Assembly: GCF_003334815.1 (NCBI RefSeq)
Contig: NZ_QOWO01000127.1
Length of the DNA stretch: 575 nt
Reading direction: 5' to 3' (one strand)
From: Escherichia coli
Lineage (GTDB): Bacteria; Pseudomonadota; Gammaproteobacteria; Enterobacterales; Enterobacteriaceae
Shown: piece after piece, positions 1-575 of the stretch
Layout of the letters: each line of letters begins with the position of its first letter
Position numbering within the stretch: the stretch's first letter is position 1
Notes under the pieces: model-generated
The model's input: the letters and a program-made list of their open reading frames with translations, nothing else
Databases searched by the model: none
Told to the model about the DNA's origin: nothing
Program-made: the position numbers and the translations under genes

Positions 1-68
1 TTCGCCAGGAACGACCGGAACGCGGCATCATGCGGCGTGGGCGTTGTGGTGTTTTTCTTCTTACTCAC
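1..68 (-). CDS. 5' end of a downstream gene Z (partial, continues beyond the window); hypothetical protein starting M(GTG)-SKKKNTTTPTPHDAAFRSFLA...
   Basis: GTG at 68..66 is preceded by a full-consensus AGGAGG. The frame is open to the window edge. The nearest in-frame upstream stop is TAA at 131..129, and the only other in-frame start candidate before the GTG is a weak TTG at 125..123 with no SD. The other two minus frames stop immediately (TGA, TAA). Not in the ORF track because it is truncated. Confidence 0.5.
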   Translation of the reverse strand, partial: MSKKKNTTTPTPHDAAFRSFLA

Positions 69-132: not shown

Positions 133-399
133 TCAGTGGCAGACCCGCTCAATTTCAAGCGCGCGGAGCAGGTGGCCCCATTCGCTGACTTTCATAGCGG
201 GGATACGCACCCGCTTCTGCTCACTGCAGCGTCTGGCGATATGGCCGCTCATCGCCAGGACGTCCGGGTTAATCTCATCCTGTGCCAGCTCCTGACGTCT
301 GAAGCGGGTATGGCGGTGCAGGGGTTTATTCTCCCGCAGGCACTCTTCACGCAGACGCTTTACATACTCGGCGGTTGCGAAGATAATTGATGGTCTCAT
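133..399 (-). CDS. Hypothetical small basic protein Y, 88 aa, arginine-rich (14 Arg, 10 Glu, 3 Cys, 5 His); possible nucleic-acid-binding or regulatory protein, function unknown
   Basis: ORF-track entry 133..399 (-). ATG at 399..397 is the first start codon in the frame and sits 8 nt after a GGAG Shine-Dalgarno. Codon usage favours CTG, CAG, ACC, CGT, CGC. Same strand as the flanking genes X and Z. About a third of residues are charged, with helix-like amphipathic stretches (TAEYVKRLREECLREN, SEWGHLLRALEIERV). No family recognised by eye. Confidence 0.6.
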   Translation of the reverse strand: MRPSIIFATAEYVKRLREECLRENKPLHRHTRFRRQELAQDEINPDVLAMSGHIARRCSEQKRVRIPAMKVSEWGHLLRALEIERVCH

Positions 400-407
400 G
401 GCATAAT
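399..407 (+). promoter_or_regulatory. Candidate extended -10 promoter element (TGgCATAAT) on the plus strand
   Basis: TG at 399..400, one spacer base, then CATAAT at 402..407 (5 of 6 match to TATAAT), i.e. the TGnTATAAT extended -10 pattern. No good -35: TTGCGA at 375..380 is 21 bp away. A start near 414 would give a transcript of about 80 nt ending at the 466..493 terminator. Motif match only. Confidence 0.2.
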
Positions 408-411
408 CTCC
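408..411 (-). promoter_or_regulatory. Shine-Dalgarno (GGAG) for gene Y
   Basis: Minus strand reads ...CTATGGAGATTATGCCATG; GGAG is the complement of 408..411, with an 8-nt spacer to the ATG at 399..397. Confidence 0.5.
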
Positions 412-465
412 ATAGATAGTGATTGAGATGCCGGACTTCCTGGCGGGGAAGCGCCGGCGGAGAGA

Positions 466-493
466 GGCAGGGTTTATCGCCCTGCCTTTTTTT
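466..493 (+). terminator. Rho-independent (intrinsic) terminator-like hairpin, plus-strand orientation
   Basis: Perfect 7-bp stem GGCAGGG (466..472) / CCCTGCC (480..486) with 6 of 7 G:C pairs, 7-nt loop TTTATCG, followed directly by TTTTTTT (487..493). An A/G-rich stretch (461..465) upstream could extend pairing with the T tract. On the minus strand the hairpin is followed by UCUCUCC, not a U tract, so the canonical orientation is plus. Confidence 0.6.
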
Positions 494-575
494 CATTTCG
501 GACAGCGACGCAGTGCCAGCGCGAGCGCTTTCATCTTCCAGCCTTCCGGCGTGCGGTACATCACCTTCCAGTAGC
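493..575 (-). CDS. 3' end of an upstream gene X (partial, 5' end beyond the window); hypothetical protein ending ...YWKVMYRTPEGWKMKALALALRRCPK*
   Basis: Minus-strand frame is open from the window edge to a TGA stop at 495..493. Codon choice is typical of enterobacterial coding sequence (CTG, GCG, CCG, CGC, CGT, AAA). The other two minus frames in this region are closed or read through the terminator hairpin with rare codons. Too short for the supplied ORF track. Confidence 0.55.
   Translation of the reverse strand, partial: YWKVMYRTPEGWKMKALALALRRCPK

What the first reader, a model, noticed from the sequence alone, without database searches (positions are those of the whole stretch)
399..493. 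Strong plus-strand intrinsic terminator with no plus-strand gene to terminate: candidate cis-antisense small RNA opposite the X-Y junction
All credible coding sequence here is on the minus strand, yet the best-formed RNA signal in the window (7-bp GC stem, 7-nt loop, T7 tract at 466..493) is oriented for the plus strand. Its T tract abuts the stop codon of gene X on the opposite strand. About 60 bp upstream on the plus strand is an extended -10-like TGgCATAAT (399..407), lying between the SD and ATG of gene Y on the other strand. A transcript from about 414 to 493 would be fully complementary to the 5' UTR of Y's mRNA just upstream of its SD. That geometry resembles cis-antisense regulators of type I toxin-antitoxin and other antisense-controlled loci, but nothing here shows Y is a toxin. 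The alternative is that the hairpin is a leaky terminator or stabilising stem-loop for gene X.
Basis: partly seen in the sequence, partly recalled or inferred. Interest (0 to 1): 0.45.

Follow-up and report, generated by a model that had tools for sequence, protein, structure and literature searches.

The report
Plasmid antisense RNA opposite ygdA start
The plus-strand terminator is real and most likely ends a roughly 100-base antisense RNA that covers the ribosome-binding site of a small gene (ygdA) in the first-transferred region of IncI1 resistance plasmids; it is a diverged, unannotated relative of an antisense RNA (AS-pc01) already catalogued for IncF plasmids.

Summary
At 466-493 the plus strand has a 7-bp GC-rich stem, a 7-nt loop and T7. 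No dinucleotide shuffle of the window matched it (0 of 3000).

The window matches the leading region of IncI1-type plasmids at 100% identity. Gene X is ygcA, gene Y is ygdA, and the left-hand gene is the Rpn nuclease gene ygdB. All three follow an Frpo/ssi-like ssDNA-promoter repeat.

- **Promoter.** The likely promoter is TTTACA-17-GATAAT at 359-387, not TGgCATAAT at 399-407, which a common allele replaces.
- **Extent.** The predicted RNA spans 392-493. It covers ygdA's start codon and Shine-Dalgarno sequence and folds into three stem-loops.
- **Conservation.** The same layout recurs upstream of ygdA/ydaB homologues of 35-58% identity in IncF and other leading regions, with compensatory stem changes.
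- **Known family.** In a Klebsiella IncF plasmid the element is Rfam RF02875 (AS-pc01). A model built only from IncI alleles hits the same place.

The window itself is not detected by Rfam. No transcript data for IncI1 could be accessed, and repression of ygdA is inferred. Verdict: a diverged new member of a known antisense-RNA family, of moderate interest.

The parts
359..364 (+). -35 hexamer TTTACA of the predicted antisense promoter (inside ygdA codons 12-14)
   Evidence: the only sigma-70-like site in the window (10/12, 17-nt spacer); a site this good within 300 nt upstream on the same strand occurs in 0.9% of shuffles. Invariant in all 66 unique sequences. T[TG][TG]ACA sits at the same relative position in diverged homologues.
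382..387 (+). -10 hexamer GATAAT of the predicted antisense promoter (inside ygdA codons 5-6)
   Evidence: Wobble sites inside the two hexamers: 0 of 4 variable, against 49 of 85 elsewhere in ygdA (p=0.037, singletons included; not significant without them). Equivalent -10 elements in IncF lie 7 nt before the 5' end of the Rfam AS-pc01 match.
392..493 (+). Predicted antisense RNA, about 102 nt (IncI-complex homologue of AS-pc01)
   Evidence: Folds into three stem-loops, dG -49.1. Model R1, built from IncI alleles, hits the homologous antisense position in L125, L126, L131, L134, L135, L138, L141, L128/129. The L141 hit coincides with Rfam RF02875.
393..429 (+). Stem-loop 1 (stem 393-398 with 424-429). 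Contains the anti-start codon CAT (397-399) and the anti-SD CTCC (408-411).
   Evidence: Helix 1 has changes on both sides in 6 of 6 pairs, with 90% of cells paired.
430..458 (+). Stem-loop 2 (GCCGG 430-434 with CCGGC 454-458; inner stem 436-441 with 446-451)
   Evidence: The base stem GCCGG/CCGGC is kept in nearly all lineages while the interior differs entirely. Helices 2 and 3 are 95% and 86% paired.
466..493 (+). Intrinsic terminator: stem 466-472 with 480-486, loop 473-479, T7 487-493
   Evidence: Stems found in diverged lineages: GCAGGG/CCCTGC, GCAGGC/GCCTGC, GGCAGAC/GTCTGCC, GCAGAGC/GCTCTGC, GCAGGT/ACCTGC. T5-T7 is always on the antisense strand.
133..399 (-). ygdA (gene Y), 88 aa, member of the YgdA/YdaB leading-region family; the presumed target
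408..411 (-). Shine-Dalgarno GGAG of ygdA
   Evidence: Read from the sequence. Conserved in both spacer alleles.
493..575 (-). 3' end of ygcA (gene X, 144 aa; stop codon 495-493)
   Evidence: Sometimes mis-annotated as PndC.
1..68 (-). 5' end of ygdB, an Rpn-family nuclease gene downstream in the same operon
399..407 (+).
   Evidence: Replaced in allele B.

Best explanation
Window 392-493 (plus strand) encodes a roughly 100-nt cis-antisense RNA. It is a diverged IncI-complex member of the plasmid antisense-RNA family that Rfam calls AS-pc01 (RF02875).

**Shown or strongly indicated by sequence**
- A sigma-70-type promoter (TTTACA-17-GATAAT, 359-387) lies inside the first codons of ygdA.
- The predicted start is at about 392, and transcription would stop at the intrinsic terminator 466-493, exactly at ygcA's stop codon.
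- The RNA folds into three stem-loops.
- It is perfectly complementary to ygdA's first two to three codons, its AUG, its SD and the whole ygcA-ygdA spacer.

**Inferred**
- Pairing with the polycistronic ygcA-ygdA-ygdB mRNA blocks ribosome binding at ygdA. It may also trigger duplex cleavage, lowering YgdA and possibly the downstream Rpn nuclease while sparing ygcA.
- The operon lies in the leading region, and the plus strand is the transferred strand. The mRNA can therefore be made from incoming single-stranded DNA through the upstream Frpo/ssi-type promoter.
- The antisense RNA needs the complementary strand as template, so it can appear only after conversion to double-stranded DNA. It would then act as a lock that shuts the module off once the plasmid is established.
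For: **Terminator.** It is far beyond chance and strand-specific.

**Promoter.** It is the only sigma-70-like site on the plus strand within 3.4 kb. A site this good occurs within 300 nt upstream in 0.9% of shuffles. The hexamers are invariant in 66 unique sequences.

**Conservation in diverged loci.** The exhaustive HMMER search found YgdA homologues of 33-58% identity. Their contigs are other plasmid leading regions, carrying psiB, psiA, N6-methyltransferase, antirestriction and SLT genes. In 10 of 11 lineages the antisense strand carries:
- a hairpin plus T5-T7, 65-90 nt upstream of the ATG;
- a -35/-10 pair with a 17-nt spacer, 40-52 nt inside the gene;
- a predicted 95-108-nt three-hairpin RNA.

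**Terminator detail.** The stems differ by compensatory changes. Four lineages have a GAAA tetraloop on the antisense strand only.

**Covariance model.** The model built from IncI alleles alone finds the right place and strand:

| Locus | E-value |
|---|---|
| L125 | about 1e-23 to 3e-23 |
| L126 | about 5e-6 to 1e-5 |
| L141 | 1.3e-5 |
| L131, L135, L138 | 0.001-0.008 |
| L134 | 0.007 |
| L128, L129 | 0.01-0.02 |

**Base-pair counts.** On that alignment 93% of cells pair and 20 of 25 pairs have changes on both sides. 0 of 500 shuffles match; slid controls give 35-52%. G-U cells outnumber A-C cells 27 to 6 in the antisense orientation.

**Known family.** Rfam RF02875 AS-pc01 hits L141 at 2416-2512, minus strand, with 97.7 bits (gathering 79). 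Sub-threshold hits fall at the homologous place in L140 (73 bits), L126, L138, L135, L128 and IncI allele B. The Rfam model's 5' end lies 7 nt after the predicted antisense -10 in L140 and L141. That position corresponds to window 392 through R1.

**Independence from gene X.** The hairpin is present in L126/L127 without an upstream ORF ending at it.

**Principle of dsDNA-only expression.** Genes whose template is not the T-strand are expressed only after ss-to-ds conversion (Couturier et al. 2023, PMC9849209). The operon follows a repeat of the region upstream of ssb, including a long hairpin. ssDNA promoters have been mapped in IncI1 pESBL (PMC12672017).
Against: - No strand-specific transcript data for an IncI1 plasmid could be accessed. 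Expression of this diverged copy is inferred from sequence and homology.
- The window itself gives no RF02875 hit even at E<=10. IncI allele B scores only 24 bits.
- Promoter conservation is confounded by protein constraint. The hexamers overlap conserved I-I/V and V-K/Q codons, and the fixed 17-nt spacing follows from the protein alignment. The wobble-site test loses significance when singletons are dropped.
- Secondary structure mirrors onto the mRNA strand. Composition-controlled z-scores for SL1+SL2 are equal on both strands (-2.8 each). One common variant (CCAGC) pairs better on the mRNA strand.
- The alignment used for pair counts was fitted to the model.
- The function of AS-pc01 itself is uncharacterised as far as I could find. 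Repression of ygdA and the ss/ds timing logic are inference.
- If the ssDNA promoter is silent in dsDNA, there may be little mRNA left to repress.
Confidence: 0.72

Rival explanations
1. The conserved element works only in the sense mRNA. The stem-loops form a structured 5' UTR that sequesters ygdA's SD and AUG, giving translational coupling or attenuation. The hairpin after ygcA's stop codon protects the upstream cistron from 3' exonucleases. On this reading the antisense T tract and promoter-like hexamers are by-products.
For: The mRNA strand folds as significantly as the antisense strand (z -2.8 versus -2.8). The common CCAGC variant gives G-U on the mRNA strand and a mismatch on the antisense strand. 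The hairpin usually sits right after an upstream stop codon.
Against: A stabiliser needs no A run before it, yet an A5-A7 run (T tract on the other strand) is kept in 10 of 11 lineages. GNRA loops are on the antisense strand only. The hairpin persists where no ORF of 40 aa or more ends at it. The homologous IncF element is catalogued as an antisense RNA gene. This rival is compatible with the main explanation, because antisense/target pairs have mirrored structures.
Confidence: 0.12
2. The plus-strand terminator is only an insulator. It stops stray antisense transcription coming from oppositely oriented genes nearer oriT (for example ygeA), so that it does not run into the ssDNA-promoter hairpin and the anti-defence genes. 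No dedicated small RNA is made.
For: Plus-strand genes lie 1.1-1.6 kb upstream (ygeA and a small ORF). The Rpn terminator is unidirectional for the minus strand.
Against: A strong promoter-like site lies about 100 nt upstream on the same strand in every lineage. The structure between promoter and terminator is conserved with covariation. The Rfam family boundaries match promoter-to-terminator.
Confidence: 0.07
3. The three hairpins act in the transferred single-stranded DNA (plus strand = T-strand), for example as a priming or protein-loading site for complementary-strand synthesis, and not as RNA.
For: The element is in the leading region on the T-strand. Three adjacent stable hairpins are present. 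Some lineages carry GCGAAAGC-type loops on the T-strand; from my own knowledge these are known as very stable DNA mini-hairpins.
Against: A T run directly after a GC hairpin is the RNA-terminator signature. The element is tied to the ygdA/ydaB start region rather than to oriT distance. The IncF homologue is reported as an RNA.
Confidence: 0.05
4. The locus is a type I toxin-antitoxin pair with YgdA as the toxin.
For: The geometry (antisense RNA over the translation-initiation region) resembles hok/sok, pnd and flm. Some records label ygcA as PndC.
Against: YgdA is 88 aa, pI 9.9, GRAVY -0.66, and its most hydrophobic 19-aa window scores 0.23, so there is no membrane helix. There are no PADLOC, NCBIfam or Pfam hits. 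Frameshifted ygdA copies occur without loss of the RNA element. The real pnd locus lies elsewhere on the plasmid.
Confidence: 0.02

Closest known systems
AS-pc01 (Rfam RF02875, 'Antisense to pHK01_035'), from the IncFII plasmid pHK01 (Jiang et al. 2017, FEMS Microbiol Ecol 93:fix090; reference seen in PMC11980398)
   Same: Same position and strand relative to a YgdA/YdaB-family gene. Same length of about 100 nt. Same three-hairpin layout, with the anti-SD CUCC in the first loop, a GCCG...CGGC second stem, and a terminator plus U tail. The 5' end lies a few nucleotides inside the ORF.
   Different: The primary sequence has diverged so far that the window gives no Rfam hit at E<=10, and IncI allele B reaches only 24 bits against a gathering score of 79. 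The downstream partners differ: Rpn nuclease in IncI, DUF3560 plus methyltransferase in IncF. No expression data exist for the IncI copy.
FinP / traJ of F-like plasmids
   Same: A short cis-antisense RNA made from a promoter inside the target's 5' region. Stem-loops are complementary to the target's ribosome-binding site, and the RNA ends in a terminator with a U tail. IncI1 plasmids also encode a FinO-domain protein, FopA (PMC7491321).
   Different: No sequence or Rfam relationship: FinP is not among the hits. The target is a leading-region gene of unknown function, not a transfer activator. Chaperone dependence is unknown.
Inc RNA / repZ (IncI1) and CopA / CopT (IncFII) replication-control antisense RNAs
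   Same: Plasmid cis-antisense RNAs with mirrored stem-loops. Allelic diversity is concentrated in the stem-loops.
   Different: Different locus and target. There is no role in replication, and no conserved UUGGCG-type loop motif (loop sequences vary).
Sok/hok, PndB/pndA and FlmB/flmA type I toxin-antitoxin systems
   Same: An antisense RNA over a translation-initiation region on conjugative plasmids; flm also lies in a leading region.
   Different: The target is not a small hydrophobic toxin. There is no conserved mok/pndC-type leader ORF: T-run length variation shifts the only spacer ORF in and out of frame.
Frpo/ssi single-stranded-DNA promoters of leading regions
   Same: Same genomic neighbourhood. 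They provide the sense transcription that this RNA would oppose.
   Different: Those are roughly 300-nt DNA hairpins active as ssDNA. This is a conventional dsDNA promoter-terminator unit on the opposite strand.

Membership tests
Intrinsic (Rho-independent) terminator, plus strand | GC-rich stem of 5 bp or more with a short loop | tested here: met
   7 bp (6 G-C), 7-nt loop, dG -14.4.
Intrinsic (Rho-independent) terminator, plus strand | U/T tract directly after the stem | tested here: met
   T7 at 487-493, T score 5.12. T5-T9 in all alleles.
Intrinsic (Rho-independent) terminator, plus strand | Actual 3' ends of transcripts at the T tract | not testable with these tools
   No Term-seq or RNA-seq data could be accessed.
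Bidirectional terminator (would also stop ygcA transcripts) | U-rich tract after the stem on the minus strand as well | tested here: not met
   The minus-strand tail is UCUCUCC, T score 1.65.
AS-pc01 (Rfam RF02875) | Score at or above the Rfam gathering threshold (79 bits) | tested here: not met
   The window gives no hit at E<=10. IncI allele B L010 scores 24.3 bits. L141 scores 97.7 and L140 73.1 bits.
AS-pc01 (Rfam RF02875) | Antisense to the 5' end of a YgdA/YdaB-family (pHK01_035-like) gene | tested here: met
   The Rfam hit in L141 overlaps the start of the gene annotated YdaB. YdaB and YgdA are homologues. That pHK01_035 itself belongs to the family is inferred from this.
AS-pc01 (Rfam RF02875) | Homology shown by a reciprocal profile search | tested here: met
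   The IncI-only model R1 hits L141 at 2413-2512 with E 1.3e-5, the same interval as the Rfam hit. Intermediate lineages link the two.
AS-pc01 (Rfam RF02875) | Shared three-hairpin secondary structure | tested here: met
   Caveat: the alignment was fitted to the model.
Cis-antisense regulatory RNA | Own promoter on the antisense strand | tested here: inconclusive
   A 10/12 sigma-70 match with a 17-nt spacer, conserved in position. It is confounded by coding constraint, and no TSS data are available.
Cis-antisense regulatory RNA | Detected transcript and an effect on the target | not testable with these tools
   No expression data for IncI1. The literature searches found none.
Type I toxin-antitoxin system | Small hydrophobic membrane toxin (usually under 60 aa) | tested here: not met
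   YgdA is 88 aa, pI 9.9, GRAVY -0.66, maximum 19-aa hydropathy 0.23.
FinP (Rfam RF00107) | Match to the family model | tested here: not met
   FinP is not among the hits at E<=10 or at E<=5.

The most novel reading that the evidence does not exclude
The AS-pc01-type antisense RNA is a conserved 'establishment timer' of conjugative plasmids. The YgdA/YdaB module is transcribed from the incoming single strand through ssDNA promoters. The antisense RNA can be made only once the complementary strand exists. It would then shut off translation of YgdA/YdaB, and by polarity or cleavage the downstream nuclease or methyltransferase genes. This would couple leading-region shut-off to ss-to-ds conversion in at least 5000 IncF, IncI and related plasmids. 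The mosaic stem-loop alleles would give plasmid-specific pairing.
Probability: 0.3. Interest if true: 0.7.

Novelty: new member of a known kind. Interest (0 to 1): 0.5.

Why it matters
IncI1-type plasmids carrying this exact window occur in about a quarter of complete E. coli genomes (1341 of 5426). The wider YgdA/YdaB family occurs in at least 5000 PLSDB plasmids.

The leading region is under active study as the place where plasmids express anti-defence and establishment genes from single-stranded DNA. None of the leading-region papers I could read mentions an antisense regulator there.

Linking the IncI element to AS-pc01 has three consequences:
- An obscure Rfam family gains a conserved genomic logic.
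- Its range extends to plasmids where Rfam does not find it.
- It suggests a testable mechanism for switching off an ssDNA-promoter-driven module after establishment.

Tried and rejected
Rejected as the promoter. It is not conserved in allele B and has no -35.

**Type I toxin-antitoxin reading.** Rejected on YgdA's properties.

**Coding role for the spacer.** Rejected. T-run length (5-9) shifts the ATG(496) ORF between a 49-aa frame and an in-frame 120-aa extension of ygdA.

**Telling the strands apart by structure.**
- RNAalifold on close IncI alleles showed almost no covariation.
- Raw MFE favoured the antisense strand in 7 of 8 lineages.
- Composition-controlled z-scores were equal, so I do not use MFE as strand evidence.

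**Published expression evidence.** None found in:
- FopA, FinO and ProQ RIP-seq papers and their supplements;
- SL1344 TSS and sRNA supplements;
- the ED-TA paper's supplements, which are not held;
- general searches.

IesR-1 of pSLT is unrelated.

**Function of YgdA.**
- No Pfam, NCBIfam, PHROG, PADLOC or PDB-sequence hit.
- The AlphaFold model has pLDDT 68 and no PDB fold match.

**Other searches that added little.**
- The species-representative genome scan found only one locus.
- The 'divergent' YgdA proteins of 65-84% identity turned out to be mostly frameshifted near-identical DNA.
- A hairpin-pattern metagenome scan gave many IncI alleles plus unrelated chance terminators.
Full report
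**1. What the window is**

The 575 bases match IncI1-type plasmids at 100% identity. They occur in 1341 of 5426 complete E. coli genomes, almost always on plasmids, and in about 2300 PLSDB plasmids of Escherichia, Salmonella, Shigella and Klebsiella.

In annotated records the window lies in the leading region between oriT/nikA and ardA-psiA-psiB-ssb. Using R64-style names:
- gene X is ygcA (144 aa, sometimes mislabelled PndC);
- gene Y is ygdA (88 aa);
- the leftmost gene is ygdB, an Rpn-family nuclease.

All are on the minus strand. The 640 bp upstream of ygcA repeats the region upstream of ssb (81-95% identity) and contains a long DNA hairpin. This fits the Frpo/ssi single-stranded-DNA promoters described for IncI1 plasmids (PMC12672017; PMC10104558).

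The leading region enters the recipient first, 5' to 3' away from oriT, and its genes use the transferred strand as template. The window's plus strand is therefore the transferred strand. This is an inference.

**2. The observation**

The hairpin and T tract are as described: stem 466-472 with 480-486, loop 473-479, T7 at 487-493.
- On the plus strand this is a canonical intrinsic terminator (dG -14.4, T score 5.12). On the minus strand the tail UCUCUCC scores 1.65.
- No dinucleotide shuffle of the window (0 of 3000) reaches it.
- In 50 kb of pCol1B9 it is one of eight sites passing a looser threshold, and the only one in the leading region that is antisense to the leading-region genes.
- TGGCATAAT is at 399-407 as stated.

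**3. Promoter**

A second spacer allele replaces 399-440, reading CACAAATATTT with a GTG start codon. It is found in about 450 plasmids whose YgcA and YgdA proteins are identical to the window's.

The tool's only promoter-like site in the window is TTTACA-17-GATAAT at 359-387 (10 of 12). It is also the only plus-strand site in 3.4 kb around it.
- A site this good within 300 nt upstream of the terminator on the same strand occurs in 0.9% of shuffles.
- The hexamers are invariant in 66 unique sequences.
- 0 of 4 synonymous sites inside them vary, against 49 of 85 elsewhere in ygdA (p=0.037). This is not significant if singletons are dropped.
- The predicted start is G392/G393.

**4. The predicted RNA**

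The RNA spans 392-493, about 102 nt, and folds into three stem-loops (dG -49):
- SL1 (393-429) holds the anti-AUG and anti-SD;
- SL2 (430-458) has a GCCGG/CCGGC base;
- the third is the terminator.

It ends exactly at ygcA's stop codon and overlaps only the first two to three codons of ygdA. Within the IncI complex the spacer is a mosaic of SL1 and SL2 alleles. The T run varies from 5 to 9. This moves the only spacer ORF in and out of frame, so the spacer is not coding.

**5. Distant homologues decide the matter**

A word-indexed protein search suggested that ygdA was confined to the IncI complex. The exhaustive HMMER search then found homologues of 33-58% identity. Their contigs are other plasmid leading regions carrying psiB, psiA, N6-methyltransferase, antirestriction/KlcA and SLT genes. 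The family, annotated YdaB in one record, occurs in at least 5000 PLSDB plasmids, including mainstream E. coli and Klebsiella IncF plasmids.

In 10 of 11 lineages the antisense strand carries:
- a hairpin plus T5-T7, 65-90 nt upstream of the ATG;
- a -35/-10 pair with a 17-nt spacer, 40-52 nt inside the gene;
- a predicted 95-108-nt three-hairpin RNA.

The terminator stems differ by compensatory changes: GGCAGGG/CCCTGCC, GCAGGG/CCCTGC, GCAGGC/GCCTGC, GGCAGAC/GTCTGCC, GCAGAGC/GCTCTGC and GCAGGT/ACCTGC. Four lineages have a GAAA loop on the antisense strand only. In L126/L127 no ORF of 40 aa or more ends at the hairpin, so the hairpin travels with the ygdA 5' region and not with gene X.

A covariance model built only from IncI alleles finds the correct place and strand in the diverged loci. 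On the resulting alignment:
- 93% of cells pair;
- 20 of 25 pairs show changes on both sides;
- no shuffle matches, and slid controls give 35-52%. That alignment is fitted to the model, which is a caveat.
- G-U cells outnumber A-C cells 27 to 6 in the antisense orientation.

**6. Link to a known family**

Rfam RF02875, 'AS-pc01, antisense to pHK01_035', hits the Klebsiella IncF locus L141 at 2416-2512 (minus strand) with 97.7 bits against a gathering score of 79. My IncI-built model hits the same interval (E 1.3e-5).

Sub-threshold AS-pc01 hits fall at the homologous place and strand in L140 (73 bits), L126, L138, L135, L128 and IncI allele B (24 bits). The window itself gives none, and no Rfam family passes its gathering threshold in 16.5 kb of IncI1 leading region.

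In L140 and L141 the Rfam model's 5' end lies exactly 7 nt after the antisense -10. Through R1 this position corresponds to window 392. The family derives from Jiang et al. 2017 on plasmid pHK01; I saw the reference but the paper is not held. From memory, it was based on RNA-seq with Northern validation. An RT-qPCR detection of As-pc01 in STEC vesicles is reported in PMC12370729. I found no functional study of the family.

**7. Mechanism**

- Shown by sequence: perfect complementarity to ygdA's SD, AUG and the whole spacer, plus a promoter-terminator unit on the strand opposite the operon.
- Inferred: occlusion of the ribosome-binding site and/or duplex cleavage, lowering YgdA and perhaps downstream ygdB.
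- Inferred from the strand logic: the antisense RNA needs the complementary strand as template. It can therefore appear only after ss-to-ds conversion, while the sense operon can fire from ssDNA. Couturier et al. showed this logic experimentally for the oppositely oriented ygfA gene of F.
- Weaknesses: there are no IncI1 transcript data, the promoter is confounded with coding constraint, and the structure mirrors onto the mRNA strand.

**8. Rivals**

- An mRNA-only 5' UTR/stabiliser element: compatible with, but not sufficient for, the conserved T tract.
- A bare insulator terminator.
- A T-strand DNA structure.
- A type I toxin-antitoxin system, rejected on YgdA's properties.

**9. Verdict**

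The element is a diverged, Rfam-invisible member of a known antisense-RNA family. What is new is its conserved association with YgdA/YdaB genes in leading regions and the timing hypothesis that follows from it.

Noticed in passing
L001 8981-9614 and 15327-15990 (upstream of ygcA and of ssb): A repeat of about 640 bp (81-95% identity) that includes a long DNA hairpin. It is presumably the Frpo/ssi class 1 ssDNA promoter driving ygcA-ygdA-ygdB. No Rfam family (for example STAXI) passes its gathering threshold there.
   Followed up: partly
window 399-458 (spacer alleles; L009-L011, L053, L101): The ygcA-ygdA spacer is a recombining mosaic of very different SL1 and SL2 alleles (85-88% identity over 171 bp), while the flanking proteins are identical. 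One allele uses a GTG start. This may reflect diversification of antisense/target specificity, or simply weak constraint.
   Followed up: partly
window 487-496: T-run length varies from 5 to 9. With T6, an ATG overlapping ygcA's stop (ATGA) reads in frame into ygdA, and gene callers then report 119-120-aa forms. With T7 it opens a 49-aa out-of-frame ORF.
   Followed up: yes
L001 6909-7154 (minus strand), just downstream of ygdB: An 81-aa ORF resembling the C-terminal part of Rpn proteins (TIGR01784 positions 215-273, E 2e-6). It is reminiscent of the short Rpn fragments reported as antitoxins. The operon's minus-strand terminator lies at its start.
   Followed up: no
NC_017718.1 30311-31360 (SL1344_P2_0044, the Rpn gene): In a supplementary RIP-seq table of El Mouali et al. 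2021 (file 4, which I take to be the ProQ set), this mRNA is strongly enriched: log2FC 2.86, padj 1.8e-18, TPM about 6-7 in the controls against 185-272 in the co-IP.
   Followed up: no
L004 1565-1954 and equivalents (between ygdA and ygdB): Many IncI/K/B/O plasmids carry an extra 129-aa gene (ccgAII, sometimes labelled CbiX) inserted between ygdA and the Rpn gene. It has a weak PADLOC hit to PRTase_III-A (E 5e-4).
   Followed up: no
L005, L006, L008 (ygdA copies): Several assemblies carry ygdA with 1-2-bp deletions, giving proteins of 65-84% identity from near-identical DNA. The antisense element is intact in them. These may be pseudogenes or assembly errors.
   Followed up: partly
L125-L141 (genes downstream of ygdA/ydaB homologues): The gene after the YgdA/YdaB homologue varies: Rpn nuclease, N6-adenine methyltransferase plus antirestriction, DUF3560 plus SAM methyltransferase, DUF5983, DUF4942. 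The 5' antisense module stays the same. YgcA matches two PHROG families of unknown function.
   Followed up: partly
L137 906-1247: The most distant homologue examined (33% identity, different N-terminus, followed by DUF4942) lacks the antisense terminator. It is the one exception among 11 lineages.
   Followed up: no
L135 601-698 (+): A weak hit of the IncI-built model (19 bits, E 0.01, GC 0.67) about 800 nt upstream of the real element. It is probably spurious.
   Followed up: no
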